Below, piece by piece: positions 6,867 to 52,328 of a DNA stretch of 64,000 nucleotides. The stretch is from a virus: IMG/VR virus record IMGVR_UViG_3300042260_000713, positions 1 through 64,000 of that record; one strand, given 5' to 3'. A program made the translations under genes and the position numbers. Numbering within the stretch: the first letter of the stretch is position 1; each line of letters begins with the position of its first letter. The notes below the pieces were generated by a model that was not told where the DNA came from, did no database searches, and saw nothing but the letters and a program-made list of their open reading frames with translations.

Positions 6867-9031
6867 GCGTCGCGGGCGGCGGCATTGATCCAGCCCCTGG
6901 AGGGGGTCCACACCGGATCCCCCGATGGCCAGGGCCTGGCGCCACCGTTTGCCGGGTTGTTGGCCTGGTTCGGCCGGGGGGTGGTGGCCGGCAGGGCCGT
7001 GCGCTCCATCAGCGGGAAGTCGCTGGGCCCGCGGGGCTCACCGGTGCCACCGATCGGCCGCCAGGGCCTGCTGCTGGCCTCGTCGTACTTCTGCCGTGTC
7101 GCCGCGGCCAGGGCCTGCTGCTGCTCCTCCCAGCGCTCGCCGCGGCCGCTGGCCAGCTCGTTCTGAATGACCAGGGCCTCCAGGGTGATGGGAGACAGGG
7201 CACAGCGGCAGTTGTGGGTCAGAATCCCATTGGCGACATACATGCCTGAGAACGTCGTCAGGTCGTACACAAAACCGTCGTGCCACGCAGGATCAACCTT
7301 GATGTCCAGGATCTCGTCAGCCGCTACGAGGCCGGGGCAAGCCCCAACCAGCTGGCCAAGCATTTCCACATCACCCGCCGAACCGTTCATCGCCGGTTGC
7401 TCAAAGCGGGGGTCCCGCCACGCAATGCCAGCAAGGCGAACCAGCTCCGATGGGTTCAGATGACCCCCGAGCAGCGCGCTGCGCAGGTCGCCGCGGCCCA
7501 TGAGGCCTCCAAGGGCCGCGTGGAACGTGAGGAGAGCAAGGTCCAGCGCGCTCAGACCCGCTTTCAGCGGTCGCTGGGCATCAGCGGGTACGAGAGGCAG
7601 ATTGCCGAGCTGCTGCAGGCCGCCGGCCACGAGGTGGTTCATCAGCTCCCGGTCGGCCCATACAACATCGATCTGGCCCTGCCCGGCTGCTCCATCGCCG
7701 TGGAAGTGAACGGGGGCCACTGGCACGCCTACGGCCGGCATCTTGCTCGCCGCAACCGTCGCCTGAAACAGATCCTCGATGAGGGCTGGAGCTGTTGCGA
7801 GGTCTGGGTTGGCCATGACGGACTGGACCCCGGGGGCCTGGGCGAGCACCTGGTCGCCACGATTGAGCGCATGCGCAGCAACCCAGCCTCGGGTTGTCGC
7901 CACGAGATGATGACGGGTACAGGCGAGGCGACGGCCCGCCTTCGTTCGTATGGTCACGACGTCGCCCCGATAGATCATGCGAGTCGCCGCGATCAGGTGA
8001 CCGGGCAGTACCTCCGTGCCGGGTAGCACGCAGTTCGGGTGGATCGGGGTCTTCACGCTGCCGGCGTAGTAGAGGGCCCCCATCCGGGGCGCGCAGAACT
8101 CGCAGACCCGATCGTCGGCTGTGGCCACGTATCGCACGAAGCCGGCCCCCACCCGGCGGAAGGTGCGCTCGCGGGCCTCGCCGGCGGCGATGTGGGTTTC
8201 GGTGCGGGCGACGGTCTCGGCGCGGCCGCGAAAGGCGTCGTTGATGTGGGGTAGGCGCTGCTTGAGGGTGCGGGCCAGCTGGCGGCTGTCCACGCCGGTA
8301 GCCAGCTGGGTGGCGGTCTCAAACTGCACCGTGTCGCCCCAGTCGCGCCACCAGCGAAAGAAGTAGTCCTTCGAAGCGCGCACCCGCTCATCGGTTGCGG
8401 CGTTGCGCTGGCGGCGGTAGTTGGCGCTGAGGCTCTTGAAGTCGCGCTCGGCTGCGGCGATGGTGGCGCCCATGTTCAGGAGCCTGGTGAAGCTCTGGCC
8501 CTCCTGGTAGGGGCTCCCGGGGGCCGGCGCATCGGTGGGGCCTGGAGGCCCGGCAGGCGGCAGCTGGGGGTCCTGCAGGGCTGGGTGGCGGCCGGAGAGC
8601 ACGGCGGCCGGGGGGAGCATGTTGCGCGAGAGCTCGATGGCGTACTCGGTGCCGAGGTCCTGGGCGCGGTTGTAGAGCTCCGTGAGCTCACGGTTCAGGG
8701 CTGCGTTGGCGGCCCGGTCGGCCGGGAAGCGGTTGATGATCGCCTGCAGGTCCTGAACCAGCTGGCCCTGCAGGTAGAGGCTGGCCTGGTTCTTCTGCAG
8801 GGGGGTGATGGGCACGGGGCCATCGGGGGTGGATCCCAGGAAGGCGCCGGGGGTGGTGGCCGGGTCGTACTGGGGCTGGGCCTCGATCCGCTCCAGCCGA
8901 TCGGTGAGGCTGCGGATGGTGCGGCGCAGCGCCTCATCGAAGATCCCGCGCAGCTTGCGCAGCTGCCGATCCTCCAGGCCCCGCAGCTGCTGATCCAGCT
9001 CCTCGAGCAGCTCCAGGGACCGGTCAGCCAT
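6824..9031 (-). CDS. Head morphogenesis protein (Mu F / SPP1 gp7 family) interrupted by an intein
   Basis: ...GRAETVARTETHIAAGEARERT...RYVATADDRVCEFCAPRMG...TPIHPN[intein]CRCALSP. With the insert removed, the family hallmark HPNCRC is restored. Lies downstream of the portal. Confidence 0.8.
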   Translation of the reverse strand: MADRSLELLEELDQQLRGLEDRQLRKLRGIFDEALRRTIRSLTDRLERIEAQPQYDPATTPGAFLGSTPDGPVPITPLQKNQASLYLQGQLVQDLQAIINRFPADRAANAALNRELTELYNRAQDLGTEYAIELSRNMLPPAAVLSGRHPALQDPQLPPAGPPGPTDAPAPGSPYQEGQSFTRLLNMGATIAAAERDFKSLSANYRRQRNAATDERVRASKDYFFRWWRDWGDTVQFETATQLATGVDSRQLARTLKQRLPHINDAFRGRAETVARTETHIAAGEARERTFRRVGAGFVRYVATADDRVCEFCAPRMGALYYAGSVKTPIHPNCVLPGTEVLPGHLIAATRMIYRGDVVTIRTKAGRRLACTRHHLVATTRGWVAAHALNRGDQVLAQAPGVQSVMANPDLATAPALIEDLFQATVAASKMPAVGVPVAPVHFHGDGAAGQGQIDVVWADRELMNHLVAGGLQQLGNLPLVPADAQRPLKAGLSALDLALLTFHAALGGLMGRGDLRSALLGGHLNPSELVRLAGIAWRDPRFEQPAMNGSAGDVEMLGQLVGACPGLVAADEILDIKVDPAWHDGFVYDLTTFSGMYVANGILTHNCRCALSPITLEALVIQNELASGRGERWEEQQQALAAATRQKYDEASSRPWRPIGGTGEPRGPSDFPLMERTALPATTPRPNQANNPANGGARPWPSGDPVWTPSRGWINAAARDAYDAMVAEVAGLEV
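7211..8032 (-). mobile_element. Intein (274 aa) within the Mu F-like gene
   Basis: Starts with Cys1 (CVLPGTEVL). Block B-like LACTRHHLVATTRGWVAAHALNRGDQVL. C-terminal FVYDLTTFSGMYVANGILTHN followed by the +1 Cys of CRC. Confidence 0.8.
7280..8026 (+). CDS. HTH + Vsr/DUF559-like PD-(D/E)XK endonuclease (putative homing endonuclease), antisense and nested inside the intein
   Basis: 248-aa ORF. N-terminal HTH is VSRYEAGASPNQLAKHFHITRRTVHRRLLKAGV. The core is PYNIDLALPGCSIAVEVNGGHWH...RRLKQILDEGWSCCEVW, similar to the motif YRADFAWPAAQVAVEINGGLW in the 27276 gene. Third-codon positions are strongly G/C. Confidence 0.6.
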   Translation: MPRRINLDVQDLVSRYEAGASPNQLAKHFHITRRTVHRRLLKAGVPPRNASKANQLRWVQMTPEQRAAQVAAAHEASKGRVEREESKVQRAQTRFQRSLGISGYERQIAELLQAAGHEVVHQLPVGPYNIDLALPGCSIAVEVNGGHWHAYGRHLARRNRRLKQILDEGWSCCEVWVGHDGLDPGGLGEHLVATIERMRSNPASGCRHEMMTGTGEATARLRSYGHDVAPIDHASRRDQVTGQYLRAG

Positions 9032-9224
9032 TCAGGGGGGTGCAGCGCGCCCGCAGAGCATCGACCCGGGCCTGCAGTCTGTCGGTGCTTGTCTGCAGAG
9101 GTTTGCCAGTGAGCTCGCGCAGGTGTTCGTCCTGCAGCCGGTAGAAGGCTTCCAGGTCGCCACGGCCTCGGGCCTCATTCATGGCCACAAGCAGCTGGAA
9201 ACGGCGAGGGAATGGTTGCTTCAT
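9024..9224 (-). CDS. Small hypothetical protein ending in the RxDALxxxC helix motif
   Basis: 66-aa ORF with ATGA overlap to the upstream stop. The C-terminus ...DRLQARVDALRARCTPLNG resembles the helix that precedes the cysteine modules. Confidence 0.45.
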   Translation of the reverse strand: MKQPFPRRFQLLVAMNEARGRGDLEAFYRLQDEHLRELTGKPLQTSTDRLQARVDALRARCTPLNG

Positions 9225-11578
9225 GGCCGGCCCCCAAAACGACGATCGAGCTCGCGCCGCATCCGATCAAGATCACTCTGGCCGAAGATGGCATCGCGCG
9301 CTGCCGCGGCCCGGGCCAGCACTTCCGGCGTGAGCGGCGGCTCCAGGCCCACCCGGGGATCCCGCAGGGCCATGTCGTAGGGCATGCCCTCCTCTCTCTT
9401 AATCCTGTTGGCTTCCACAATCCGGCGGCGGAACTCACCCGGCTCAAACTTCACGCCCACCTGGTCTTCGTTGGTCTCCTCCCACGCGAGGTCGTGGGCT
9501 GAGATCACGCGCTTGAAGGCCAGCTCTGCATCCCTTGCCCTCTCGCGTGCAGTGGCGACGATTTCAGAGAGGCCCTTCGCCGCTGCTGGCAGCCGCTGCG
9601 CCTGGCCAGCAAGGCTGAGCAGGGGGATGAGGGCATAGCCCTCGTCGCTGGCCTTCATTGCTGCACTGCGGGTGCCCTCATTCCATGGGTTGGGGGATTC
9701 TCGAACCTGCCCCCAGTCGATCAAGGCCGGTGTGCCATCCGGGCCCACCAGGATGTTGCCGCCGTGCAGGTCCCCGTGGATCAGGCCGGAGTCGGCCTGC
9801 CGGCGGGCCAGCTGCAGCGCACCCGCCACGTACCTGGCCGCGGCCTTCGGGTCCGAGAGGGTTGCCGCCGCTTCTGGGGTCAGGTCCACCGTCTGGTGGG
9901 ACGGGGTGAGCTTCGAGCCGCGCAGCATGCGGTATGCGAGGCTCCAACGGCCATCGGGCAGGTGGACAACATCTCCGATCGGCTTGGGGCCCAGGCCGAC
10001 CGCATGGGCCCGCTGCAGGTTGCGCAGCTCACGTCGGGCCACGTTCTCTCGCTGCTCGGCCAGGCCCACCCGCGGATCATCCTCTGCGGGGTCACCCATG
10101 GTGAGGCTGTTGACCTTCACCACCACAGGGCCATCGGCGGTGTCGAACTGGTAGGTCTTGCCAAACGCCCCACTGCCCAGGCTGCGCACCGGCGGCTGCC
10201 CGCGGAATCGGGGCTCTCCGCCGTCAGCCTCGAGCGTGATCTCGCCCTTGCCGGCGGCAGCGGTGGCTGCATTTCGGGCCTTCCGCTCTGCTGCCTCCCG
10301 AACCTTGCGGGCCTGGGTTTCCTGATGCAGCTGCATCAAGCGGTTCGGCGTGGCCGCGGGTTGCACCGCAGCAGCCCCTTTGCGGCAGGTGTCGCGGGGA
10401 TCGATCCAGCCCGCACCGCAGGGTTCGCCACCTCCCGGGCCGCGGCCGCCGCTTGCACCGCCCCCGGTCAAGTCCAGCGCCATCTGGCCGGGAGCCTCTT
10501 GTCGGCGACGGGCATCAAAGCGCTGTTTCAGGGCGTCGATGCGGACCTGGAGGCTGTCCAGAGTGGTGCGATCTCCGCCGCCAAACTCAGGCAGCTGCAT
10601 TGCTGCTTCGATGAACAGGCGCTCGTCGTCATCTAATTCGCTATCCATACGCCGGCGTTTTGCGATCTTGCCTCCCTTCACAAGGGCAATCCCGTCATGC
10701 CTCTGGCCAACCGGGAATTGAAAACCTAGTGCCTCGTACATTTTCTTCCGCTCTTCACCATATCCATCACCTCCATAGGCGCTGCAGGTGAGCAGTGAAC
10801 CATCAGGCATCCCCTTCAACATCTCGGCCATCTGTCGAAACACTGCGCGAGCCACCAGGGCCCCATCAGCGGGGGAGATGTCAATTCTTTTCAGGCCAGT
10901 CATAACTTCACTGGTGCCAGTGAAGAAATTCAGATCGGTGGCCACGATTTTTGGCACACCGGGGGCGTCTTCGTCGCCTGGGACCACCAGCGGATTTACC
11001 CCTACTTCCTTGCCCAGCTCAGCAGCTCGACGGTGGATGCTGGTTGACCAGACATAACTGGCATCAGGATCTCGGAGTCTGACGTTGGTGATTTGCCCGA
11101 ACACCCCGGCGTGAATCGTTCTGGTCTCAGTGTTGCCGCCGCTGATCTCAACGGTGAATTCGCGCTGAAGCTGGTCTTTTCGCGGGCGACCGCTCCCACT
11201 ACGCGGTGGGTCCGTTGACTTGATGCTGATTTTTGCCTTTCTGCGGTCAGCTGCCTCAGCGGCAGTGGCGGCGATAGTTTGCCGGGCGGTCTTGCGCCGG
11301 TTCAGAAGCTCTTGAGCCTTGCTGCCGCGGGCGCTGCGCAACTCCTGGGCCATCTCGCCGGCCTCGCCGGCCTTGACCGTGCCGATGCCCCGCTGGTTGG
11401 AGGGACCTCCGGCCGCCAGGGCCATGAGCCGCTTCAGGCGCTCCTTGCCGATTGCCGATCCCGGCCTGGTGCGGCATTCCTTCCGCAGGCTGATGCACGT
11501 GGATCCGCAGCCGTAGCCGGTGCTGCACTTGCGCTTCAGGGCATCGATCCGTTCCTGCAGGCTCTCAGCCCGGTTCAT
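9221..11578 (-). CDS. Multidomain virion-module protein: N-terminal Cys4 module, DGYG/GF domain, protein-kinase-like domain
   Basis: ATGA overlap with the portal stop. Begins MNRAESLQERIDALKRKCSTGYGCGSTCISLRKECR. Kinase motifs are GSGAFGKTY...VVVKV...HGDLHGGNILV...LIDWG (about 9695-10192). Confidence 0.7.
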   Translation of the reverse strand: MNRAESLQERIDALKRKCSTGYGCGSTCISLRKECRTRPGSAIGKERLKRLMALAAGGPSNQRGIGTVKAGEAGEMAQELRSARGSKAQELLNRRKTARQTIAATAAEAADRRKAKISIKSTDPPRSGSGRPRKDQLQREFTVEISGGNTETRTIHAGVFGQITNVRLRDPDASYVWSTSIHRRAAELGKEVGVNPLVVPGDEDAPGVPKIVATDLNFFTGTSEVMTGLKRIDISPADGALVARAVFRQMAEMLKGMPDGSLLTCSAYGGDGYGEERKKMYEALGFQFPVGQRHDGIALVKGGKIAKRRRMDSELDDDERLFIEAAMQLPEFGGGDRTTLDSLQVRIDALKQRFDARRRQEAPGQMALDLTGGGASGGRGPGGGEPCGAGWIDPRDTCRKGAAAVQPAATPNRLMQLHQETQARKVREAAERKARNAATAAAGKGEITLEADGGEPRFRGQPPVRSLGSGAFGKTYQFDTADGPVVVKVNSLTMGDPAEDDPRVGLAEQRENVARRELRNLQRAHAVGLGPKPIGDVVHLPDGRWSLAYRMLRGSKLTPSHQTVDLTPEAAATLSDPKAAARYVAGALQLARRQADSGLIHGDLHGGNILVGPDGTPALIDWGQVRESPNPWNEGTRSAAMKASDEGYALIPLLSLAGQAQRLPAAAKGLSEIVATARERARDAELAFKRVISAHDLAWEETNEDQVGVKFEPGEFRRRIVEANRIKREEGMPYDMALRDPRVGLEPPLTPEVLARAAAARDAIFGQSDLDRMRRELDRRFGGRP
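11405..11563 (-). repeat. Cys4-module repeat, copy 1
   Basis: Encodes SLQERIDALKRKCSTGYGCGSTCISLRKECRTRPGSAIGKERLKRLMALAAGG. DNA is similar to 53149-53307, 60082-60240, 62107-62268 and 63478-63612. Confidence 0.85.
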
Positions 11579-13569
11579 GCCTCTGCCCCATCTGCAGGAA
11601 GGTAGGCATCGCACAGGGCGCCCATCGCCACCAGGTCGACGGCGTCGATCCGGCGGATGGTGGGGGTGGGGCCAACGGCATCGCGCACGCCCCGCAGGTG
11701 CTGGTGGCCCAGGGCCAGCAGGTAGGCGCCGCTGGATGCCTCGAACACCTCCCAGGCGCCGCTCAGATCCGGTCCCACCGCCACGGGATAGGGGAGGGTC
11801 TGTCCGTAGGGGCCCTGCAGGCGGCCGATGCCCGGGCCATCCATCCGCACGCTCACCCCGAGGATCTGATGGATCTGGCCGGCGGCATCGTTGCGGGGCT
11901 GCTCATCCCGGCGGCGGCGGCGGCGCGCGCGGTGCTCGGTGATCTGCTCGGCCAGGGCCTGGGCCCGCTCCTCGCAGGCGTCACAGCAGGGCTCGTCGTC
12001 GGCATCGGTGCGGGGCGGGGTCTCAGGCGGTGCGGTGCCCTCCAGGCCCTCCAGCCCGGCATCACCGCCGGCGGCCGGAGCCTCCCCGGTGGCCTGGGCC
12101 TCCCCGGGGGCCGCGGCCGGATCGCCCCCGAGGGTGCCGCCGAACTCCACCGGGGCAGGCTGCTCCGGCTGCGGGATCGAACCATCGGCCTCGCGGTTCA
12201 GCAGGGTGGTGTCGAGGGAGAACCGAGGCTTCCCGAACCGCGCCAGCGCCACCTCGTTGGGCTGCAGCACACCGCCGGTGATGTACTGGCTGTCGGCCGC
12301 GGCCACCTTCTGCCGCAGCTCCGCCTGTTCATCATCCGTTGGGGTGTAGGTGGGCCGGAAGGTGATCTCCCAGTCTTGCGGCGGGGCCTTGCCCTTCCAG
12401 GGGCCATCGGAGCAGGCCATCACCAGCTCGTAGATGCGCCGGAGGGGTTCCTTCAGGTGCTGGGCCTGCCAGTCAGCCACCTCGTTGCCGAAGGCCGCCT
12501 GCTCGCTGCGGCCATCGGCGCCCAGGCCCGAGGGGCTCTCACCCCACAGCAGGGTGTGAGGGAGGCCAGAGGCGCCGGTGATCTCCGATTTCAGGCTGGC
12601 GAGGATGTCGGCGATGCCGGCGGCGGAGCGGGTGAAGTGGGTCAGCTCCTCGTTGTCGTTCAGCAGGTAGGCGCCGATGGTGGAGCGGGCCAGGGCGTTG
12701 GCCTGCAGGCGCTGGCGCAGCTTGTCCTCTCCGCCGGCGGCGAGCATGTTGGAGAGGCCTGGGAGCTTGTGCACCACCAGGTCGAAGTCGTGGAGAATGT
12801 CGGCGGCGCTCTGCTGGCCGGTTTCGTAGCGCTTGAACACGTCCCAGACCAGATCCACCACCGACACGCCCCACCACTGCCGCTCCTGCTGGGAACGCCA
12901 GCTGCAGGGCAGACCCTCGATGCGGATCACCCGGCTGCTGTGGATCTCGATCTGGGTGGCATCGGTGAGGCCCAGGCCGGCGCTGGTGACCTGCTTGGCG
13001 CCGGCCTCCGTTTCGAGCTTCTGGAGGTCGCGATCGGCCTGGGTCCAGAACCAGTACCGCTCCGGTTCACCGATGCCCGACCAGCCGGCAGCGGGGTAGA
13101 GGCGCCAGCGATCGATTGGGTAGAGGCCGTGGATGGTGCGCAGCCGCTTGAGGTTCAGCGGCTGATCGATGGGCGTTCGGTCGTCGGCGATCACGATGAT
13201 CGCGCCGCCGCCGTAGAGGCGGCTGTAGGTGGCGGCCTGGGCCAGGGCCTGGCGAAGGTGCAGCTTCTCCGTCCAGCCCACCACGTCGTCGAGCTGCTTC
13301 TTCATGCGGCTGGAGGTTTCATCCCCCACGCTCAAATCCCAGCCGCTGCGGGTGCCCTGCTGGGGCAGCTTCTCGACGATGCGGCGGATCAGCCAGCTCT
13401 GTTCGTAGAGGGCATCGATTGCGGCCTCAGAGAGGATGCGTGATCGCTTGACGCCGATCGCTTCGTTTCGGTCCTTGGCGGTGCCCAGGCCGGTGAGCAC
13501 GTTGATCAGCGCACCATCAAGGCGATACCCGGCGCCGGGGTCATTCGACTGCAGGAAACCGATCGCCAC
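11575..13569 (-). CDS. Portal protein (DUF1073-like)
   Basis: 664 aa. N-terminus ...LDGALINVLTGLGTAKDRNEAIG...ALYEQSWLIRRIVEKLP is typical of this portal family. Lies next to the terminase and head genes. Confidence 0.75.
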   Translation of the reverse strand: MAIGFLQSNDPGAGYRLDGALINVLTGLGTAKDRNEAIGVKRSRILSEAAIDALYEQSWLIRRIVEKLPQQGTRSGWDLSVGDETSSRMKKQLDDVVGWTEKLHLRQALAQAATYSRLYGGGAIIVIADDRTPIDQPLNLKRLRTIHGLYPIDRWRLYPAAGWSGIGEPERYWFWTQADRDLQKLETEAGAKQVTSAGLGLTDATQIEIHSSRVIRIEGLPCSWRSQQERQWWGVSVVDLVWDVFKRYETGQQSAADILHDFDLVVHKLPGLSNMLAAGGEDKLRQRLQANALARSTIGAYLLNDNEELTHFTRSAAGIADILASLKSEITGASGLPHTLLWGESPSGLGADGRSEQAAFGNEVADWQAQHLKEPLRRIYELVMACSDGPWKGKAPPQDWEITFRPTYTPTDDEQAELRQKVAAADSQYITGGVLQPNEVALARFGKPRFSLDTTLLNREADGSIPQPEQPAPVEFGGTLGGDPAAAPGEAQATGEAPAAGGDAGLEGLEGTAPPETPPRTDADDEPCCDACEERAQALAEQITEHRARRRRRRDEQPRNDAAGQIHQILGVSVRMDGPGIGRLQGPYGQTLPYPVAVGPDLSGAWEVFEASSGAYLLALGHQHLRGVRDAVGPTPTIRRIDAVDLVAMGALCDAYLPADGAEA

Positions 13570-13618
13570 GGGCCGATGCGCACAGGGCCAGGGTAGGCCG
13601 CATCACACAGGGACAACC

Positions 13619-13647
13619 TTGGCCGGGGATGTTACAACCCATAGGCT
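13619..13647 (+). promoter_or_regulatory. Candidate sigma-70-type promoter for the plus-strand island
   Basis: TTGGCC (13619-13624), a 17-nt spacer, then TAGGCT (13642-13647). This is 24 nt upstream of the GTG at 13671. Confidence 0.3.
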
Positions 13648-13670
13648 GGTAGGACATCTGATCTAACCCG

Positions 13671-14657
13671 GTGAGCTCGCCGCTGGATGCGATGCTGCAG
13701 GCCTACGGGCGGCTGCCGATCCCCACTCGGGAGGAGCAGGTGTTGCTGGGCCGCAAGATTCGCGCCTGGCTGGACTGGGAGCCATCGCTGGAAGAGCAGG
13801 AGCAGGGCATCACCGAACCTCCGCAGCGGCTGCGGCGGGCGGGGATGCGGGCGCGGGAGCAACTGATCAGCAGGAACATGCTGCTGGTGGCGGACCAGGC
13901 CCGTTCGTTCTCGGTGAGCTCCACACCGGCGCTGGAGCTGCAGGATCTGATCCAGGAGGGTGCGATCGGGCTGTGCCGGGCGGCGGAGCTGTTTGATCCC
14001 GCCCTGGGCTATGCCTTCTCCACCTATGCGGTGCTGTGGATCCGGCAGAGCATGACGCGGCTGGTGCATGGCTCTGGAGCGATTCATATCCCAACGAAGC
14101 GATCGCAGGCGATGCACGGCCTGCGGAAGTGGTGCGAGGCCTTCACTGTGCGAGAGGGCAGGTTGCCCACCGATGCCGAGCAGCTGGCGGCAGGCCTCAC
14201 CGGCGTGCAACGGCCCGGTGACCTGAGGATCTTGCGGGAGGCTGCGGCCGTCTACCAGCTGCGCTCTCTCGATGTGTTGATCGGTGATGAGGATGGCGAC
14301 ACCTGGTTGAGCACCGTGGCGGCCCCGGCGGATGACCATCAGCCATCTGCCAGCGACAGGGAGTTCGATCAGGTGCTGCACTTCCTGCGGCCCTGGCCGG
14401 TGCTGCAGGAAGTGATGGAGCGACGCCTGGCGGGCCAGCCGTTCTGGGAGATCAGTGAAGCGATGGGGATGAGCGAGCGAGCAGCGATTCGCCGCGGCCG
14501 GCAAGCGCTGGCGATGGCGCAGCTGCTGGCGCGTGCGAGCGCCGAGGCCAAGGGAGAGGAGCAGCAGGAAGAGGAGCAGCAGGAGGAGCTTCCAGCGGAA
14601 CCGGCGGCGGTGGTGTACGTGCAGCCGTCTCTGCTGCCAGACCTGGTGCCTGCCTAG
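13671..14657 (+). CDS. RNA polymerase sigma factor, sigma-70 family
   Basis: Region 2: DLIQEGAIGLCRAAELFDPALGYAFSTYAVLWIRQSMTRLV. Region 4 HTH: FWEISEAMGMSERAAIRRGRQALAMAQ. Acidic C-terminal tail. Confidence 0.85.
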   Translation: MSSPLDAMLQAYGRLPIPTREEQVLLGRKIRAWLDWEPSLEEQEQGITEPPQRLRRAGMRAREQLISRNMLLVADQARSFSVSSTPALELQDLIQEGAIGLCRAAELFDPALGYAFSTYAVLWIRQSMTRLVHGSGAIHIPTKRSQAMHGLRKWCEAFTVREGRLPTDAEQLAAGLTGVQRPGDLRILREAAAVYQLRSLDVLIGDEDGDTWLSTVAAPADDHQPSASDREFDQVLHFLRPWPVLQEVMERRLAGQPFWEISEAMGMSERAAIRRGRQALAMAQLLARASAEAKGEEQQEEEQQEELPAEPAAVVYVQPSLLPDLVPA

Positions 14658-14712
14658 CACGTATGTTCCATTCCGAGGTAGAGTTGACCCGAAACAAGGC
14701 CATCGCGATTCC

Positions 14713-14985
14713 ATGCCGGCAAAGGCGCAACACTCCAGGCCCACCACGGAGACAGAGCAGGGGCTCACGGAAATGCAGCAGCGCACCCTGGATGCAGTAA
14801 GGGCCTACATCGATGCCAACGGCATCAGCCCGACCCTGAAGGATCTGCAAAAAGCGCTGGGGCTGTCATCTGTCAGCCCAGTGCAATACCACCTGAGGAA
14901 CCTGCAGGCTGCTGGGGCGATTGATCAGCGCCACGGTGTGCCTCGCAGTATTCGGGTGTTGTGGCCTCGCCCTGAGGCGGACTGA
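14713..14985 (+). CDS. LexA N-terminal DNA-binding-domain-like protein with no peptidase domain
   Basis: MQQRTLDAVRAYIDANGISPTLKDLQKALGLSSVSPVQYHLRNLQAAGAIDQRHGVPRSIRVL parallels the LexA winged-helix domain. The start is ATG 14713 or 14773. The ORF stops immediately after the domain. Confidence 0.65.
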   Translation: MPAKAQHSRPTTETEQGLTEMQQRTLDAVRAYIDANGISPTLKDLQKALGLSSVSPVQYHLRNLQAAGAIDQRHGVPRSIRVLWPRPEAD

Positions 14986-15230
14986 TGGGCTGGGGTCAGC
15001 TGCCAGAGGTGCCGGCCGAGCCTGGCCCCATTGCGCTTACAGATGCCCAGGCCTTTGAGGTGGAGCGGTTTTCCCGGGCCATTGATGCCACCTCTGATCT
15101 GGCCGATCTGCAGGGCCTGTGCAAGCAGCTGTTGCAGGCCTGGATGGCACAGAAGGCCGCGACCTGCTGGGTCATGCGCCAAAGCCTGTCAGGGCCTGGT
15201 CCAAACCACCGGCTTTCGGAGGATTCCTGA
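14985..15230 (+). CDS. NblA-like small protein, paralog 1
   Basis: ATGA overlap. IALTDAQAFEVERFSRAIDATSDLADLQGLCKQLLQAWMAQK follows the NblA pattern L-S/T-x-x-Q-x-F-x-[IV]-x-x-F...S. Shares the MGWGQ N-terminus with the next ORF. Confidence 0.45.
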   Translation: MGWGQLPEVPAEPGPIALTDAQAFEVERFSRAIDATSDLADLQGLCKQLLQAWMAQKAATCWVMRQSLSGPGPNHRLSEDS

Positions 15231-15550
15231 TGGGCTGGGGGCAATGGCGAGTGCCGGAGCTGAGCGAAGAAGATCGCTTTGCCTTGCGCGTACTGGAGCT
15301 AGAGCTTCGCAAGACATTGGACCGCCATCCCAAAAGTTTGCTTCGGATGTGCGTGGTGCTGTCAGAGCAGTGCCGGATCAGGGACAACATCATCAACAAG
15401 GCCAGCGAGCGGATTGCCGAGCTGGAGATGAGCCAGGCCATTGCAGAGCCGGCGGCACCCCAGCAGCAGCTGCGGCGGCGGCGGGGCTGGTGGAGGCGGT
15501 GGTGGTGGCGCGGGAGTGCGATTGCCCGGGCGTTGGTGCTGGGCCAATGA
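15230..15550 (+). CDS. NblA-like small protein, paralog 2
   Basis: TGATG overlap. MGWGQWRVPELSEEDRFALRVLELELRKTLDRHPKSLLRMCVVLSEQCRIRDNIINK. Basic Arg/Trp-rich tail. Confidence 0.45.
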   Translation: MGWGQWRVPELSEEDRFALRVLELELRKTLDRHPKSLLRMCVVLSEQCRIRDNIINKASERIAELEMSQAIAEPAAPQQQLRRRRGWWRRWWWRGSAIARALVLGQ

Positions 15551-16017
15551 TCGACCCTGCCTACCTCGCCCAGCTGCGGCGCACGCTGCGGGCGGAGCAC
15601 ACGATGACGCTGGTGCAGATCGAGCAGCTGGTGCCCAACTGGTGGCCCACCATCACTGAGCTGGCGGAGCAGCTCGGGACTGAACGGGCAACGCTCAATC
15701 GTTGCCTCACCAAGCTGGAGCAGCGGGCCCTGCTGCGCCGGGTGACCCGCGGCAACGGCGGCGGCACCTGGATCTGGTGGGTGAAGCGCTCTGAGCATGA
15801 TCAGCCCGACGACAGCACCGCGCCGCGCTGGGTGTTGCGTGATCTGCAATGCCGTCGCCGGCGGGAGATCATCCTGGGGCAGGAGCGGGCCTTCGCAGAA
15901 GAACAGGGGCTGTCGTACCACACTGTCCGCAACTTCCTGGCGGGTTTCCGGCCGATGCTCGCCAAGCGCTGGCAGCTGGTCAGTTCACCCCTGCAGCTGG
16001 AGGATGAGCAGGGCTGA
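15547..16017 (+). CDS. Winged-helix (MarR-like) DNA-binding protein
   Basis: ATGA overlap. ITELAEQLGTERATLNRCLTKLEQRALLRRV is an HTH plus wing. Confidence 0.55.
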   Translation: MIDPAYLAQLRRTLRAEHTMTLVQIEQLVPNWWPTITELAEQLGTERATLNRCLTKLEQRALLRRVTRGNGGGTWIWWVKRSEHDQPDDSTAPRWVLRDLQCRRRREIILGQERAFAEEQGLSYHTVRNFLAGFRPMLAKRWQLVSSPLQLEDEQG

Positions 16018-16028
16018 GCCGCACCAGT

Positions 16029-17585
16029 TCAGACCATGTGGATCCAGTCGGCAATCATCGGCCGCACCCTGGCGCCGGCTTCGCAGGCGGCAGCCAGGCT
16101 CATCACGGCGTCATCGTGGCAACCGGCCGCGGCCTCGCGGGTGCCATCGGCCCCCTGGCGGAACACGCGCATCTGTTCGCCGTAGATGCTGTGATGCGGG
16201 AAGCCCAGCTCACCCTGCTCGAGCAGCAGCAGCACCCGGTCGGTCATGGTGATCTTGCTGGCCTTGCCGGTGTGGAACTCTTCGATGGGCACCCCGGGCC
16301 GCAGGCGGGCCAGTGACTCGCCGACAGCGGCGCCGACCCCGTTCTTCTCGATCATCACCAGCTCGGGGTTGTACTGATCCATCAGGCGCGCAGTGCGCTG
16401 CAGGCCGTAGTCGCGGCTGCGGCGCGCGTCGTTGAAGTAGGCCACCACCTGCCAGGGGTTGGTGGTGACATCGAGCACGGTGGTAACCCATTCGTCGTCG
16501 CCGGAGCCGTTCGGGTCGATCCCGATCACGTAGTTATGGCCCCTGGTGGGCAGATCCACCCCGCCGATGGCCTCGGCGGCCTCGATCAGGTCGTGCGGGT
16601 AGACCTCGGCATCGGTGGCGGCGAAGTCGAGCTCGAACTCCTGCCGGTAGCGCTGCTCGGTGAGCTGGAACTTGCGCCGGGTGTTCTCCGCGTAGTTGGG
16701 GTCCTGGCTGTAGATCGGGTGCTGGCTCCAGTGGATCGCAACCTTTGCGAAGCCACCGCAGGGGCTGCAGCGGAGGATCGGAATGCCGTTGACGGTGGCC
16801 TCGCCGATCTGCTGCTCGCCGTGGTCGGTGCTCCAGTGCTCATGGAACCGGCCACTGCGGCCGTTGGGGGTGCTCACCCACACGGCGCGGGCGCGGGGGC
16901 CCAGCAGGCTGAGGGTGGGCATGGCGCCGGTCTCGATGCCCCCCAGCTTTTCGATGAAGGCACCCTCGTCAAACAGCACGAAGGATGCGGATGGGATGCC
17001 CCGGGCGGCCCGTTCGGTGGGAGGGAGGAAGTGGAGGCTGCCGCGGCCCTGAAAGACCAGTTTGCGGGCGGAGTCCTTCGGGAGGGGCGGGCAGGCGGCG
17101 CCCAAGCTGGCGGCCTGGCCCTTGATCCGTGCCGCCAGCTCGGAGGCATCTTCTCCGGTCTTGGAGAAGATGATCCCCACCCAGGCCGGCCGCTGGATGG
17201 CCTGCTGCAACATGTAGCTGATCACCGTCTCGCTCACGCCGGTCTGGCGGCTCTTGAGCACGTAGATGTTCTGGTAGGCGCGGATCGTGCGCACCAGCGC
17301 CAGCTGGTAGTCCCAGGCCCTGAACGGCAGATACTTGCCCTGGGAGGCGATGAAGGTGCGGGCGGCGAAGTCGGGCCAGCGCTTGGGTAGCTGATCCCAC
17401 AGCTGCACCGCCTGCTCCTGGGAGAACAGGCCGCGGCGGGGGAGGTACTGCAGCGCCGGCCGCACCACCTTCTTGCGGGGCAGGTGGAGGCCCGTGGCGC
17501 CCCTGCTGCGGGGCCAGGCATAGCAGGGTGTCTGGGTGCGGAGCTGGGCCTCGTAGTCGGCCCAGGCCTCGTCATCCCAGGCCAT
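16029..17585 (-). CDS. terL: Terminase large subunit
   Basis: 518 aa. Walker A-like YVLKSRQTGVSE, Walker B VLFDEGAF, and a C-terminal nuclease-like VIGIDPNGSGDDEW. Confidence 0.85.
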   Translation of the reverse strand: MAWDDEAWADYEAQLRTQTPCYAWPRSRGATGLHLPRKKVVRPALQYLPRRGLFSQEQAVQLWDQLPKRWPDFAARTFIASQGKYLPFRAWDYQLALVRTIRAYQNIYVLKSRQTGVSETVISYMLQQAIQRPAWVGIIFSKTGEDASELAARIKGQAASLGAACPPLPKDSARKLVFQGRGSLHFLPPTERAARGIPSASFVLFDEGAFIEKLGGIETGAMPTLSLLGPRARAVWVSTPNGRSGRFHEHWSTDHGEQQIGEATVNGIPILRCSPCGGFAKVAIHWSQHPIYSQDPNYAENTRRKFQLTEQRYRQEFELDFAATDAEVYPHDLIEAAEAIGGVDLPTRGHNYVIGIDPNGSGDDEWVTTVLDVTTNPWQVVAYFNDARRSRDYGLQRTARLMDQYNPELVMIEKNGVGAAVGESLARLRPGVPIEEFHTGKASKITMTDRVLLLLEQGELGFPHHSIYGEQMRVFRQGADGTREAAAGCHDDAVMSLAAACEAGARVRPMIADWIHMV

Positions 17586-19412: not shown

Positions 19413-20273
19413 ATGTCTTTGCATTCCGAGAAGCGTGCTTGCACGCTGTCTTCTGACAGGCTGGAAATGCTTCTGCAGACGGGTTTTTGCTGGACAGAAG
19501 CGGCAAGGATCAGCGGCCTCACGGCGAGCGTCCTGCGTCACTGGTGGCAACGAACAGGCTCACAGAACTGCGATCCGGTTGAAGTGGCGCAAGGGGAGCG
19601 GCTGATACACGCGAACTACCGGCAGTGCTCGCCGCAGCTGTTTGATGGCCTGATGGTCTGCGGCAAGTGCCGCGGCCGGATGAAACGGCCGGATCTGAAG
19701 GATGTCTGTGGCCGCCCGCACCGCTGGGCCTGCCCCCGCTGCCGCACCAATGGGCGCTGTGAGTGGGTGCAGGCCGCGGCCATCAAGCGGGCGGTGTTTG
19801 AAGCGCTGCAGAGCCGGCTGCCGGAGATGGCGCGGCTGTGTGAGCACCGCACCGGGTTGCAGCGCAAGCGTGAGCAGCAGTGGCTGGAGCAGCTGGAGCA
19901 GTTTCGGGCGATGGCCCAGCGGCTGCATGAGGCCGGCGTGCCGCGGTTGGGTCCCCAGCTGCTGGCGGCCCGGGTGCAGCTGGCGAAGGACCAGCTGGGA
20001 GAACCGCCCTATCTCGATCGCCACGATTGGGGTGAGACGTTCAGCACCTGGGGGGCGTGGGAGGGTGCCAGCTCACACCAGTGGCGGATGGTGTCCGTCT
20101 TCTTCTGCCGGAAGATCGTCTGGGATGGCGAGCGCCTCCAGGTGGTCCTGTTCGGGCGGCGCTTTGTCGATCCACTGCTGATGGATCGCCACGAGCACCT
20201 CGTTGATCAGCCCCTGTGGCGACCGCCCGTTCATCCGTTGGCGTTCAGCCATCCTGCTCATCGTGAAAGTTGA
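19413..20273 (+). CDS. HTH + zinc-ribbon protein resembling the C-terminal part of large serine recombinases
   Basis: FDGLMVCGKCRGRMKRPDLKDVCGRPHRWACPRCRTNGRCEWVQAAAIKRAVFEAL followed by a coiled-coil-like segment. No resolvase catalytic domain is seen. Confidence 0.45.
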   Translation: MSLHSEKRACTLSSDRLEMLLQTGFCWTEAARISGLTASVLRHWWQRTGSQNCDPVEVAQGERLIHANYRQCSPQLFDGLMVCGKCRGRMKRPDLKDVCGRPHRWACPRCRTNGRCEWVQAAAIKRAVFEALQSRLPEMARLCEHRTGLQRKREQQWLEQLEQFRAMAQRLHEAGVPRLGPQLLAARVQLAKDQLGEPPYLDRHDWGETFSTWGAWEGASSHQWRMVSVFFCRKIVWDGERLQVVLFGRRFVDPLLMDRHEHLVDQPLWRPPVHPLAFSHPAHRES

Positions 20274-23986: not shown

Positions 23987-24411
23987 GGCAGGAACTGGTG
24001 TGGTTGAATCCACTCCCCTATGCCTGCAAAGTGCGTTTGATGCCGTAGAATGACCGTATTGCGGCCATCGCATTCGCTGGGGAGCGGGTCCGGTGGTCGC
24101 AGCCCGAGAGGGCAACACTGGTTCCGCCGATTCGGCGGGGCCTTTGTTGCGTTCGGGAAACCGACCAGTGAGCTTCAACCATAGCCGGTTCGGGATGCTG
24201 CCACCTGGGGCTGTTCTCAATCTGCAGCCGACCGTCACGGCTCCCAGGGACTGATCCCCTGTTCGGCTATCCCATGCTGGGCATGGATGGGAGTGGTGGG
24301 ACAGCTGCTAGGACGTGTTCGAGATCGAAAATGCTCGTTCCCCGTCGCTAAGACGTGTGTCCGAGCCCAGACAGGCTCGTTCTCCGTCTCCTCTTCCTTG
24401 GATGGATCGCC

Positions 24412-36280: not shown

Positions 36281-36303
36281 CTTCCGCTGCTTCTGCCCGC
36301 AGG

Positions 36304-37386
36304 CTAGGCAGGCTCCATCTCTGACAAGGGATGAGTTCGATCAGCAATGACGAAGCGCACGTCGCCGATCGCGGCGAACTGGCCGGTGATCTTCATCGTG
36401 TCGCCGGCCTGGGCCGACAGCCGGGTTTTGAAGAGGGCGATGTCGAGCTCATAGAAGAGGCACTCCTCGCGGATGAACTCGTGGCCATTGGAGTGGCCCC
36501 GCGGGCCATCGGCCACCAGCAGGCGGATCGTGGCGGTGCTGCCGTGCCGGCTGAGCTGCTGCAGCCTGAGCATCGCGGCGCTGGAGCTGACACCAGGGCT
36601 GTAGGTGTTGCTCACCTCGCCGGAGAACGAACCAGCGCCTGAGGCCTGGCTGGCGATCACCGACCCGAAGGCCTCGCCGATCGCGCCGTGGTCAAGCATG
36701 CCGGCATCGTTCTCCAGGTCCCAGGCGGAGAGATCAGCCTGCCGTTTCCAGCCTCGCTCGTCCGCATCAGCGCCGGCCTCCTTGACCACCGCCGGCAGGG
36801 CCGGCACCAGATCGGCCAGCAGGCTCTCGGGCTCCTGCGGCCGGGGCAGGGCCAGGGCCAGGGCGAGCAGGGCCTCGGCGTAGCCGCTGCGGGTGCTGGC
36901 GACGCTGAGAATCAGCCGATCAAAGCCCACCAGCCGCAGCGGCAGCCGGCTGAGCTCACCGCCGTTCACGGCAGACACCTCCAGGCTGTAGAAGGTGCTC
37001 CGCTCCAGCGCATCGCGGTGGATGAACACCGTGGCCTGCTGGGCAAAGCCCACCGTGCCGGCATGCTCCCAGAACGTGGCATTGTCGTCAGGACCCCAGA
37101 ACGGGGCATCGGCGCCGAGCCGGTGCGCGGTGGCCGGGCCGCCGGAGGCTGCATCCCCCCAACACGTGTGGCCATCGGGGCAGTTGGCGTAGCCAGTGCC
37201 GAGCACGTCGATCGGCAGGCCCAGGGGGGCGGTGAGCAGCACCTGGTCGCCGTTGAGATAGCCGGGCTCCTCCAGCCGCAGGCGCACCACGCTGGCGGGC
37301 GCATCGATCACCGCATCGGTGAGCACCACCGCAGGCGGCCAGCTGCGGCTGAGAGTGAGGGTGCCGATCGTGCCGTCGATCGCCAT
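36304..37386 (-). CDS. Hypothetical distal tail/baseplate protein
   Basis: 360-aa ORF in the tail module. Confidence 0.55.
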   Translation of the reverse strand: MAIDGTIGTLTLSRSWPPAVVLTDAVIDAPASVVRLRLEEPGYLNGDQVLLTAPLGLPIDVLGTGYANCPDGHTCWGDAASGGPATAHRLGADAPFWGPDDNATFWEHAGTVGFAQQATVFIHRDALERSTFYSLEVSAVNGGELSRLPLRLVGFDRLILSVASTRSGYAEALLALALALPRPQEPESLLADLVPALPAVVKEAGADADERGWKRQADLSAWDLENDAGMLDHGAIGEAFGSVIASQASGAGSFSGEVSNTYSPGVSSSAAMLRLQQLSRHGSTATIRLLVADGPRGHSNGHEFIREECLFYELDIALFKTRLSAQAGDTMKITGQFAAIGDVRFVIADRTHPLSEMEPA

Positions 37387-52322: not shown

Positions 52323-52328
52323 TTCTCA

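What the first reader, a model, noticed from the sequence alone, without database searches (positions are those of the whole stretch)
13619..16017. Opposite-strand regulatory island (sigma factor, LexA-DBD, two NblA-like proteins, wHTH) inserted between terL and the portal gene
- The terminase and portal genes are normally adjacent. Here they are separated by about 2.4 kb of five plus-strand genes.
- The island has its own candidate promoter (TTGGCC-17-TAGGCT). Its last four genes are chained by ATGA/TGATG overlaps, while the sigma gene is separated from the next start (14713) by about 55 nt.
- The cargo combines a complete sigma-70-family factor with three small DNA-binding or host-modifying proteins.
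- It therefore looks like a self-contained host-takeover or lysogenic-conversion cassette in a very unusual location.
Basis: partly seen in the sequence, partly recalled or inferred. Interest (0 to 1): 0.7.

Follow-up and report, generated by a model that had tools for sequence, protein, structure and literature searches.

The report
Sigma-factor operon locked to phage portal gene
A five-gene regulatory operon led by a sigma factor really does sit backwards between the terminase and portal genes of this likely Cyanobium phage, but it is an old, conserved part of the phage lineage with a swappable cargo end, not a recent insertion.

Summary
Five plus-strand genes (13671-16017) lie between portal (11575-13569, minus) and terL (16029-17585, minus). 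They are a sigma-70-family factor, a 90-aa LexA DNA-binding domain without the protease domain, two small helical proteins (o3, o4) and a winged-HTH protein. The stated overlaps and the TTGGCC-17-TAGGCT promoter are correct.

All 29 distinct related contigs with terL at least 82% identical keep sigma plus LexA-DBD there, as does the 76% group.

In relatives down to 59% terL identity, sigma stays head-to-head with portal across about 60-130 bp. This holds even where terL is inverted. A 39% relative has terL directly next to portal.

The invariant unit is therefore the sigma/portal divergent pair. Its two -10 hexamers keep TAnnnT in every relative examined. The terL-proximal end is a gene-swap zone (o3, o4, wHTH, DNA methylases, DUF4326).

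"NblA-like" is unproven: Pfam gives no hit, and profile similarity is weak for o3 and moderate for o4. The o4 family also flanks the sigma gene in isolates S-CBS1, KBS-S-2A and S-LBS1.

Phage sigma factors in cyanosiphoviruses are known, so this is a new architectural variant of moderate interest.

The parts
11575..13569 (-). Portal gene, first gene of the minus-strand unit that diverges from the sigma gene
   Evidence: PF06381 E 5e-65 and phrog_146 E 9e-88. It is head-to-head with sigma in all relatives with terL 59-95% identical.
13590..13616 (-). Candidate portal promoter on the minus strand: TTGTCC (13616->13611), 15-nt spacer, TACCCT (13595->13590), 21 nt before the portal GTG
   Evidence: The -10 keeps T1, A2 and T6 in 19 of 19 close relatives (TACCCT x14, TAGCCT x3, TACTTT, TACCTT). 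TAnnnT is also at the same place in the 59-76% relatives. The same TTGTCm-N15-TAsCCT pattern recurs at 36301-36327.
13619..13647 (+). Candidate sigma-operon promoter: TTGGCC, 17-nt spacer, TAGGCT
   Evidence: The -10 is TAGGCT in 17 of 19 relatives, with TAAGCT and TAGGAT in the other two, so TAnnnT is kept. The -35 is TTGGCy or CTGGCy in most. TAnnnT is also present upstream of sigma in the distant relatives.
13628..13658 (.). Imperfect inverted repeat GATGTT...GACATC flanking the sigma -10; a weak candidate operator
   Evidence: The arms read GAYGTT / AACRTC across relatives and are perfect over 7 bp in L002. GTTC/GAAC is only about 2-fold enriched in these intergenic regions.
13671..14657 (+). 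Sigma-70-family factor (328 aa) with regions 1.2, 2, 3 and 4 and no region 1.1, related to cyanobacterial group 1/2 sigmas
   Evidence: PF04542 46.5 bits; TIGR02937 61.1 bits against a cut-off of 42.9 over model positions 2-160 of 165. TIGR02997 (cyano RpoD) scores 108 bits against a cut-off of 384.5. The best PDB match is cyanobacterial SigA, E 3e-21. It is 30-38% identical to the S-CBS1, S-CBS3, KBS-S-2A and S-LBS1 sigmas.
14713..14985 (+). Stand-alone LexA-type winged-helix DNA-binding domain (90 aa) with no S24 peptidase or dimerisation domain
   Evidence: PF01726 54 bits; TIGR00498 matches positions 2-69 of 203 only. It is present in all relatives with terL at least 76% identical and absent from the 59-64% groups.
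14985..15230 (+). o3: 81-aa helical-hairpin protein, homologue of a 57-aa chromosomal protein of picocyanobacteria; accessory cargo
   Evidence: - It is 71% identical to WP_217795625.1 of Synechococcus sp. HK05, which lies among core genes.
- A family member also occurs in an unrelated GpA-terminase phage.
- AF2 predicts helices 20-35 and 39-68 at pLDDT 76.
- It is present in only 11 of 29 close contigs.
- It is bounded by 17-nt direct repeats at 14982-14998 and 15227-15243.
15230..15550 (+). o4: 106-aa helical protein with an Arg/Trp-rich C-terminal tail; member of a small family linked to cyanosiphovirus sigma genes; possibly a remote NblA relative
   Evidence: - The family has 44 representatives at 50% identity.
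- A family member lies immediately beside the sigma gene in S-CBS1 gp26, KBS-S-2A CPKG_00010 and S-LBS1 A32 (E 3e-17, 3e-19, 5e-9).
- hhalign against NblA profiles gives probability 31-65% and P 6e-5 to 5e-4.
- The o4 HMM scores the validated S-TIP37 NblA at 14.2 bits.
15547..16017 (+). wHTH DNA-binding protein (156 aa); accessory cargo
   Evidence: GntR/MarR/replication-initiator-type wHTH hits at E about 1e-5 to 1e-6. It is 32% identical over 94% of its length to S2L_29 of cyanophage S-2L. It is present in 12 of 29 close contigs and absent from the closest (95%) relatives.
16029..17585 (-). Large terminase subunit, last gene of the ParB-HTH-g170-terL unit; it converges on the island with 11 nt between the stop codons
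   Evidence: phrog_2 E 5e-34 and Terminase_6C; coordinates.
36301..36327 (-). Second promoter of the portal type: TTGTCA, 15-nt spacer, TAGCCT, 20 nt before the ATG of the 1552-aa gene (31622-36280)
   Evidence: These are the only two exact matches to TTGTC-N16-TANCCT in the window, and both lie just upstream of minus-strand gene starts. The site is conserved in 13 distinct relatives with a constant 15-nt spacer and TAGCCT or TAACCT.

Best explanation
**Shown**
- The region is the resident transcription-control operon of a clade of uncultured siphovirus-like phages. The hosts are probably freshwater Cyanobium, and the phages probably temperate.
- Its first gene, a group-2-like sigma factor, is fixed head-to-head with the portal gene.
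- The two genes share a control region of about 100 bp with two back-to-back promoters, each with a conserved TAnnnT -10.
- The sigma-distal end, next to terL, is a plasticity zone where accessory genes are gained, lost and swapped. These are the host-derived o3, the sigma-linked o4, wHTH, DNA methyltransferases and DUF4326.

**Inferred**
- Host RNA polymerase with its primary sigma fires the host-like promoter TTGGCC-17-TAGGCT early and makes the operon mRNA.
- The phage sigma then redirects host core polymerase to phage promoters. The best candidates are the two conserved TTGTCm-15-TAsCCT promoters in front of portal and of the 1552-aa gene.
- The LexA-DBD protein acts as a small repressor or competitor, either on its own promoter or at host LexA boxes.
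- Late antisense transcription reading out of terL would help shut the operon off.
For: - **Gene identities.**
- **Real genes under purifying selection.**
- **Conservation of the arrangement.** Sigma plus LexA-DBD lies between terL and portal in 29 of 29 distinct contigs with terL at least 82% identical, and in the 76% group.
- **The sigma/portal pair is the invariant unit.** It is kept at 59-64% terL identity, including in L137-L142, where terL is inverted relative to portal. A 39% relative (L146) has terL and portal 99 nt apart and no sigma.
- **Promoter footprints.** Both -10 hexamers keep T1, A2 and T6 in 19 of 19 close relatives, and TAnnnT is present at the same places in the distant relatives.
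- **A second promoter of the portal type.** It lies at 36301-36327 and is conserved in 13 relatives with a fixed 15-nt spacer.
- **Variable cargo.** It includes D12 and N6_N4 DNA methylases and DUF4326. The island spans 1.4-5.7 kb among close relatives.
- **o3 looks like an insertion.** It is flanked by 17-nt direct repeats.
- **Mosaic history.** Island dS exceeds flank dS in L011, L017 and L023.
- **Host.** Two Cyanobium MAG contigs carry an 85% identical terL, and o3 has a homologue in Synechococcus sp. HK05.
- **Integrase.** A tyrosine integrase lies at 5138-6139.
Against: - There are no expression data, and no promoter has been mapped.
- Which polymerase holoenzyme uses which promoter is pure inference. 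All three promoters look broadly sigma-70-like, so the host sigma could serve them all.
- Pfam does not detect sigma regions 3 and 4 separately.
- The proposed operator is a weak 5-7 bp inverted repeat and is imperfect in the window itself.
- LexA-DBD is absent from the 59-64% relatives, so it is not essential to the sigma/portal unit.
- The TTGTC-N15 pattern was derived post hoc from two sites.
- The host assignment rests on MAG binning and base composition.
Confidence: 0.55

Rival explanations
1. The whole island is a recently inserted moron or lysogenic-conversion cassette. On this view it is mobile cargo dropped between two normally adjacent packaging genes and expressed from the prophage.
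For: - It lies on the opposite strand and has its own promoter.
- An integrase is present in the genome.
- The cargo end is truly variable, and o3 is flanked by 17-nt direct repeats.
- A 39% relative has terL adjacent to portal.
Against: - Sigma plus LexA-DBD is fixed at this site in 29 of 29 close contigs and in the 76% group.
- The sigma/portal pair persists to 59% terL identity and survives a terL inversion.
- No terminal repeats or mobility genes bound the island.
- GC content does not differ from the flanks.
Confidence: 0.08
2. The island is the lysis-lysogeny immunity switch of a temperate phage. The LexA-DBD and/or wHTH protein would be the prophage repressor acting on the divergent sigma/portal control region, and sigma would be the lytic activator.
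For: - A tyrosine integrase lies at 5138-6139.
- The architecture is divergent, with two back-to-back promoters and an inverted repeat over one -10.
- The LexA-DBD hits PHROG repressor families.
- Related contigs are binned with Cyanobium MAGs.
Against: - The repressor candidate sits downstream of sigma in the same operon rather than divergent from the lytic genes.
- The LexA-DBD lacks the cleavable dimerisation domain that makes such repressors inducible.
- It is missing from the 59-64% relatives, and wHTH is missing from the closest relatives.
- No prophage junction was found.
Confidence: 0.17
3. The island is mainly a host-manipulation (auxiliary gene) cassette.
- o3 and o4 would be divergent NblA-type adaptors that trigger phycobilisome breakdown.
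- Sigma and the LexA-DBD would re-programme host rather than phage genes, by mimicking a host group-2 sigma and acting as a LexA decoy.
For: - o4 gives P 6e-5 to 5e-4 against two independent NblA profiles, in the NblA register. The positive control, Pfam-type against validated viral NblA, gives P 1.7e-6.
- The o4 HMM scores S-TIP37 NblA at 14.2 bits, and the host o3 homologue scores 10.1 bits with the NblA HMM.
- Both proteins are predicted helical hairpins.
- Picocyanobacterial NblAs are known to be too divergent for Pfam (PMC12695635).
- o3 is host-derived.
- The sigma is closest to cyanobacterial RpoD-type sigmas.
Against: - No member of either family hits Pfam NblA.
- o3 against NblA reaches only P 0.005-0.04.
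- Foldseek gives no NblA hit.
- o4 carries an extra C-terminal Arg/Trp or hydrophobic tail and tracks sigma and lysozyme genes in other phages.
- The sigma/portal linkage points to phage rather than host targets.
Confidence: 0.2

Closest known systems
Group-2-like sigma factor genes ('rpsD4'/RpoD) of cyanosiphoviruses S-CBS1, S-CBS3, KBS-S-2A and S-LBS1
   Same: The sigma is homologous: 30-38% identity, and hmmsearch gives E 1e-29 to 1e-43. The hosts are picocyanobacteria. An o4-family gene lies directly beside sigma in three of the four phages.
   Different: In those phages sigma ends the early/replication operon and converges on the lysozyme end of the late operon. It is not head-to-head with portal or between terL and portal. 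No LexA-DBD partner is present. Those genomes are 30-40 kb, against about 64-69 kb here.
Phage sigma cascades (T4 gp55/gp33, SPO1 gp28 and gp33/34, phiEco32 gp36); from general knowledge
   Same: The proposed working principle is the same. A phage-encoded sigma is made early by host polymerase and redirects core polymerase to later phage promoters.
   Different: There is no sequence relationship beyond the sigma-70 superfamily. This sigma keeps group-1/2-like regions 1.2-4. Temporal use has not been tested here.
LexA repressor / stand-alone LexA-like DBD proteins of phages (e.g. mycobacteriophage Wildcat/Cosmo gp13)
   Same: It has the same N-terminal winged-helix DNA-binding domain (PF01726).
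   Different: It lacks the S24 autopeptidase and dimerisation domain that defines LexA. Its target sites are unknown.
NblA phycobilisome-degradation adaptors of cyanobacteria and cyanophages (Ma-LMM01, S-TIP37; PMC12695635)
   Same: o3 and o4 are small helical hairpins with an N-terminal L-[ST]-x-E/A-Q-x-F motif. They occur in cyanophages and hosts, and profile similarity is weak to moderate.
   Different: They fall below every curated threshold. o4 has an extra third helix or basic Trp-rich tail. The phycobiliprotein-binding positions were not checked.
Phage genome plasticity regions / morons
   Same: The terL-proximal part of the slot varies from 0 to about 4 kb among phages with more than 82% identical terL. 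It carries methylases and small accessory genes.
   Different: The slot is anchored by a conserved regulatory core (sigma with or without LexA-DBD) rather than being pure cargo.

Membership tests
Sigma-70 family RNA polymerase sigma factor | Region 2 (core binding and -10 recognition) | tested here: met
   PF04542 E 3e-12, 46.5 bits against a cut-off of 24. The motif FSTYAVLWIRQ aligns to FSTYATWWIRQ of cyanobacterial SigA.
Sigma-70 family RNA polymerase sigma factor | Region 4 (-35 recognition HTH), i.e. a full-length two-domain sigma | tested here: met
   TIGR02937 matches residues 61-282 to model positions 2-160 of 165, scoring 61.1 bits against a cut-off of 42.9. TIGR02980 covers 3-218 of 227. 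The separate Pfam r3 and r4 models gave no hit at E 0.1 or below, so region 4 is divergent.
Cyanobacterial RpoD/group-1-2 sigma subfamily (TIGR02997) | Score above the curated subfamily cut-off | tested here: not met
   It scores 108 bits against a cut-off of 384.5. It is the best-scoring model but falls far below membership.
LexA repressor | N-terminal LexA winged-helix DNA-binding domain | tested here: met
   PF01726 scores 54 bits against a cut-off of 23.7, covering residues 16-78.
LexA repressor | C-terminal S24 autopeptidase/dimerisation domain with a cleavage site | tested here: not met
   The protein is 90 aa. TIGR00498 matches model positions 2-69 of 203 only, scoring 54.6 bits against a cut-off of 110.95.
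NblA (PF04485) | Match to the curated family profile | tested here: not met
   No Pfam hit at E up to 10 for o3, o4 or ten o4-family members. The precomputed Pfam field is empty for all 48 o3 relatives.
NblA (PF04485) | Remote homology by profile-profile comparison, calibrated on a validated divergent NblA | tested here: inconclusive
   - Control: Pfam-type against T7-like cyanophage NblA gives probability 90%, P 1.7e-6.
- o4 gives probability 31-65%, P 6e-5 to 5e-4.
- o3 gives probability 1-7%, P 0.005-0.04.
- HMMER scores are 4-14 bits.
NblA (PF04485) | Helix-loop-helix of about 60 aa that forms a dimer | tested here: inconclusive
   A helical hairpin is predicted for o3 (pLDDT 76) and for o4 (pLDDT 67, plus a third helix). 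The Foldseek PDB search returned no NblA and nothing below E 4. Dimers were not modelled.
NblA (PF04485) | Binds phycobiliprotein and ClpC and triggers phycobilisome loss | not testable with these tools
   This requires expression and pull-down experiments.
Inserted mobile cassette / moron | Presence/absence polymorphism among close relatives, with boundary repeats or mobility genes | tested here: not met
   - The sigma/LexA core is present in 29 of 29 close contigs.
- No bounding repeats or mobility genes were found.
- The feature is met only for the cargo genes: o3 in 11 of 29 contigs with a 17-nt flanking repeat, wHTH in 12 of 29 and o4 in 25 of 29.

The most novel reading that the evidence does not exclude
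The phage sigma may recognise a dedicated promoter class with an unusually short spacer (TTGnCn-15-TAnCCTG). This class sits in front of portal and of the 1552-aa gene. The sigma gene would then be physically locked to its first target promoter as a self-contained late-gene switch.

The o4 family could be an unrecognised sigma-linked factor of cyanosiphoviruses. Its N-terminus MxWGxWMVPEL is conserved, its core is NblA-like, and its tail is Arg/Trp-rich. It could be a membrane-tethered divergent NblA, or an anti-sigma or appropriator acting on the host primary sigma.
Probability: 0.2. Interest if true: 0.65.

Novelty: new variant of a known kind. Interest (0 to 1): 0.42.

Why it matters
- **A transcription programme without cultures.** Phage-encoded sigma factors in cyanosiphoviruses have been annotated but not explained. 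Here comparative data tie one to a specific control region shared with the portal/structural operon, across a broad uncultured clade of freshwater picocyanobacterial phages. They also supply candidate promoters that can be tested directly.
- **A small protein family for experiment.** The o4 family travels with cyanophage sigma genes. A host-derived small protein (o3) is shared by unrelated phages. Both are candidates for the divergent NblA-like proteins recently shown to matter for oceanic photosynthesis.
- **A caution for genome scans.** An "island" between conserved genes can be ancestral.

Tried and rejected
- **Chance ORFs.** Rejected by dN/dS of 0.14-0.62 and conservation across relatives.
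- **Known RNA elements.** Rfam gave nothing at gathering thresholds over the whole window.
- **Intrinsic terminator at the convergent junction.** The terL/island junction has only a small hairpin with an insignificant z-score. The consensus scan found none there.
- **Generic sigma-70 promoter scan.** It found no sites in 11-19 kb. Promoters had to be found by phylogenetic footprinting.
- **A sigma regulon from CCATAGGCT or CAGGGTAGGCC copies.**
  - The copy at 31243 lies inside a lysis-cassette gene.
  - The copy at 30017 lies inside the endolysin gene.
  - Neither was pursued as a promoter.
- **LexA-box operator.** GAACAT and GTTC/GAAC counts are only about 2-fold enriched, and no everted pair is present in the window itself.
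- **Foldseek of the o3 model against PDB.** Uninformative for a two-helix protein.
- **tblastn of o3 and o4 against isolated phages.** No hits. The o4 homologues in isolates appeared only with a family HMM.
- **LexA-DBD near sigma in S-CBS1-type phages.** Absent.
- **Prophage junctions.** The two MAG contigs and the integrase look-up showed only phage genes.
Full report
**1. What is there**

The window is 65.6% G+C, and nearly all long genes lie on the minus strand.
- Portal is at 11575-13569(-) (PF06381, E 5e-65).
- The large terminase is at 16029-17585(-) (phrog_2, E 5e-34).

Five plus-strand ORFs lie between them.
- **Sigma, 13671-14657 (328 aa).** Sigma70_r2 scores 46.5 bits. The full-length sigma-70 superfamily model TIGR02937 passes its cut-off (61.1 against 42.9) over positions 2-160 of 165. 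The best specific model is the cyanobacterial RpoD subfamily, but it falls far below cut-off (108 against 384.5). The best solved relatives are cyanobacterial SigA proteins.
- **LexA DNA-binding domain, 14713-14985 (90 aa).** PF01726 scores 54 bits. The protein matches only positions 2-69 of the 203-position LexA model, so the protease and dimerisation half is absent.
- **o3, 14985-15230 (81 aa), and o4, 15230-15550 (106 aa).** Neither has a Pfam, PHROG, NCBIfam or PDB sequence hit.
- **wHTH, 15547-16017 (156 aa).** It carries a GntR/MarR/replication-initiator-type winged helix.

- TGATG overlaps at 14983 and 15228;
- an ATGA overlap at 15547;
- a 55-nt gap after sigma;
- TTGGCC-17-TAGGCT at 13619-13647.

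All five ORFs are under purifying selection against four relatives, with dN/dS of 0.14-0.62.

**2. Is it an insertion?**

An exact-peptide scan of IMG/VR with terL returned 36 loci with terL 82-95% identical. A GTDB scan added two contigs binned into Cyanobium MAGs. After removing duplicates, 29 distinct contigs span the terL-portal interval.
- All 29 carry sigma and the LexA-DBD gene there, on the opposite strand, with sigma always next to portal.
- The interval ranges from 1.4 kb (sigma plus lexA only) to 5.7 kb.
- o4 is present in 25 contigs, wHTH in 12 and o3 in 11.
- The extra DNA in the larger versions encodes a D12 Dam methylase, an N6_N4 methylase, DUF4326 and small unknown proteins.

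An alignment-based scan reached more distant relatives.
- **terL 76%.** The minimal island is present: terL, lexA, sigma, portal.
- **terL 59-64%.** Sigma is still head-to-head with portal, with 1.2-4.3 kb of unrelated genes towards terL. No LexA-DBD is present.
- **L137-L142, terL 59%.** terL is inverted relative to portal, yet sigma and portal remain divergent neighbours 100 nt apart.
- **L146, terL 39%.** terL and portal are 99 nt apart, with no sigma.
- **Cr-LKS4-like phages, terL 30%.** No sigma is present. One small opposite-strand gene occupies the slot in Cr-LKS4.

The conserved unit is therefore the sigma/portal divergent pair. It was acquired at or near the base of a broad clade. It is not a recent cassette.

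No repeats or mobility genes bound the island, and its G+C content matches the flanks.

The cargo end does turn over.
- o3 is flanked by a 17-nt direct repeat (14982-14998 and 15227-15243). The repeat duplicates the o4 start, MGWGQ.
- Synonymous divergence of the island genes exceeds that of terL and portal in three relatives.
- Both points indicate recombinational exchange.

**3. The control region**

I aligned the 101-nt sigma/portal spacer from 19 distinct close relatives. Two footprints stand out.
- **Plus strand.** TAGGCT at 13642-13647 is present in 17 of 19. The other two have TAAGCT and TAGGAT.
- **Minus strand.** TACCCT at 13595->13590 is present in 14 of 19. The others have TAGCCT, TACTTT or TACCTT. 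This hexamer lies 21 nt before the portal GTG.

In every sequence T1, A2 and T6 are kept while the internal bases vary, which is the signature of a -10 hexamer. The 59-76% relatives, whose spacers are otherwise unalignable, also carry TAnnnT hexamers at the corresponding places.

The plus-strand promoter has a TTGGCy/CTGGCy -35 at 17 nt. The minus-strand promoter has TTGTCC at 15 nt.

The pattern TTGTC-N16-TANCCT occurs exactly twice in the window, both times on the minus strand.
- The first is the portal site.
- The second is at 36301-36327, 20 nt before the ATG of the 1552-aa gene.
- The second site is conserved in 13 distinct relatives, with TTGnCn, an invariant 15-nt spacer and TAGCCT or TAACCT, although it is non-coding.
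- The pattern was derived post hoc. However, the TTGTC coincidence at fixed spacing was not used to pick the site.

An imperfect inverted repeat (GAYGTT...AACRTC) brackets the sigma -10. It is perfect over 7 bp in L002. Support for it as an operator is weak.

**4. The small proteins**

*o3*
- It belongs to a family of 57-80-aa proteins.
- One member is a chromosomal gene of Synechococcus sp. HK05 that lies among core genes.
- Another lies in an unrelated GpA-terminase phage.
- AF2 predicts a helical hairpin at pLDDT 76.

*o4*
- It defines a family of 44 representatives at 50% identity.
- Members share an invariant N-terminus (MxWGxWMVPEL), an RIAELE helix, and an Arg/Trp-rich or hydrophobic C-terminal tail.
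- A family HMM finds members directly beside, and convergent with, the sigma gene in S-CBS1 (gp26), KBS-S-2A (CPKG_00010) and S-LBS1 (A32). In those phages the gene lies just after the lysozyme.
- Another member follows a lysozyme in L071.
- A divergent member sits in the same sigma-LexA-o4 order in L086.

*NblA tests*
- Pfam NblA gives no hit for any member.
- I built a 120-sequence NblA profile and a profile of experimentally validated T7-like cyanophage NblAs. The second profile used S-TIP37 coordinates from PMC12695635.
- Positive control, NblA against viral NblA: probability 90%, P 1.7e-6.
- o4: probability 31-65%, P 6e-5 to 5e-4, aligned in the NblA register against both profiles.
- o3: probability 1-7%, P 0.005-0.04.
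- The o4 HMM scores S-TIP37 NblA at 14.2 bits, and the HK05 o3 homologue scores 10.1 bits with the NblA HMM.
- Foldseek is uninformative for proteins this small.

PMC12695635 reports that picocyanobacterial NblAs are too divergent for standard profiles. Remote NblA kinship therefore remains plausible for o4 (about even odds) and weaker for o3. Membership is not established.

**5. Wider context**

- The sigma is 30-38% identical to the annotated group-2-like sigmas of the cyanosiphoviruses S-CBS1, S-CBS3, KBS-S-2A and S-LBS1. In those phages sigma sits at the early/late junction, not at portal.
- The wHTH protein has one homologue among isolates, S2L_29 of cyanophage S-2L.
- The genome encodes a tyrosine integrase at 5138-6139 (phrog_1, E 9e-11), so a temperate lifestyle is likely. 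No prophage junction was found.

**6. How it most likely works**

*Shown*
- An opposite-strand operon led by a sigma gene is conserved.
- Its promoter is fused back-to-back with a portal promoter.
- A second promoter of the portal type exists.
- The distal cargo turns over.

*Inferred*
- Host polymerase fires the 17-nt-spacer promoter early.
- The phage sigma redirects core polymerase, plausibly to the 15-nt-spacer promoters that head the portal and downstream structural and lysis units.
- The LexA-DBD acts as a small repressor or competitor.
- Antisense read-through from terL may damp the operon late. Only 11 nt separate the stop codons and there is no terminator.

The rivals are an immunity switch, a host-directed auxiliary cassette and a recent moron. 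Each is scored in its own section.

**7. Verdict**

The feature is real and correctly described. It is a conserved regulatory core with a variable cargo tail, not a recent insertion. It is a new architectural variant of the known phage-sigma theme and is of moderate interest.

Noticed in passing
window 6824-9031 (-): The 735-aa Mu-F-like head-morphogenesis protein appears to carry an intein. Phage_Mu_F matches residues 234-320, followed by an Intein_splicing match at 348-607 (24.4 bits, below the cut-off of 35.8) that ends in ...THNC.
   Followed up: partly
window 5138-6139 (-) and 6140-6485: A tyrosine integrase (phrog_1, E 9e-11) is embedded among minus-strand late genes. It is followed by a 346-nt non-coding gap with a GC-rich hairpin, which is a possible attP. 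This implies a temperate lifestyle.
   Followed up: partly
window 9221-11614 (-): The 797-aa protein immediately downstream of portal has a C-terminal APH/RIO-type protein-kinase-like domain (PF01636, E 5e-11). Its middle part is very variable among relatives.
   Followed up: no
window 19413-20273 (+): This protein has only the zinc-ribbon domain of large serine recombinases (PF13408, phrog_95). It has no catalytic resolvase domain, so it is a truncated or repurposed recombinase.
   Followed up: no
window 14982-14998 and 15227-15243: A 17-nt direct repeat CTGATGGGCTGGGG(T/G)CA brackets o3, so o3 and o4 both start MGWGQ. It looks like the footprint of o3 inserting in front of o4. Relatives without o3 have lexA directly followed by o4.
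   Followed up: partly
window 31224-31251 (+): A second exact TGGCC-N17-TAGGC match shares the 11-mer CCCATAGGCTG with the sigma promoter. It lies inside, and antisense to, the 5' end of a TM plus coiled-coil lysis-cassette gene (30999-31271). It is either chance or an antisense promoter.
   Followed up: partly
window 30017-30027: An exact second copy of the portal-promoter 11-mer CAGGGTAGGCC lies inside the endolysin gene 29601-30284 (PF00959). It is unexplained.
   Followed up: partly
window-wide; TAGGCT at 3808, 13642, 27081, 31246, 53005 (5 of 6 sites listed): The hexamer TAGGCT is strongly under-represented: 6 copies against about 23 expected. Five of the six lie outside my called genes.
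   Followed up: no
window 35669-35763 (+): ARAGORN calls a 95-nt tRNA-Ser(GCT) on the strand opposite the 1552-aa ORF (31622-36280). Rfam gives no tRNA there, so it is probably a false positive.
   Followed up: no
window 51091-53397: A 2.3-kb stretch has no ORF that passes my codon-usage caller. Other gaps lie at 23390-24516 and 26691-27681.
   Followed up: no
L128 6824-7063 (-), a relative with terL 63% identical: In this lineage the gene right after sigma is another 79-aa protein with an LSFE... motif. It has weak similarity to the o3 family (9 bits). Small proteins of this kind therefore recur in sigma operons.
   Followed up: partly
L062 8001-8189; L067 6001-6174: The o3 family occurs in a lambda-like (GpA terminase) phage between primase and ParB. 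It also occurs in the Synechococcus sp. HK05 chromosome among small stress-type genes. It is a host gene captured by at least two phage lineages.
   Followed up: yes
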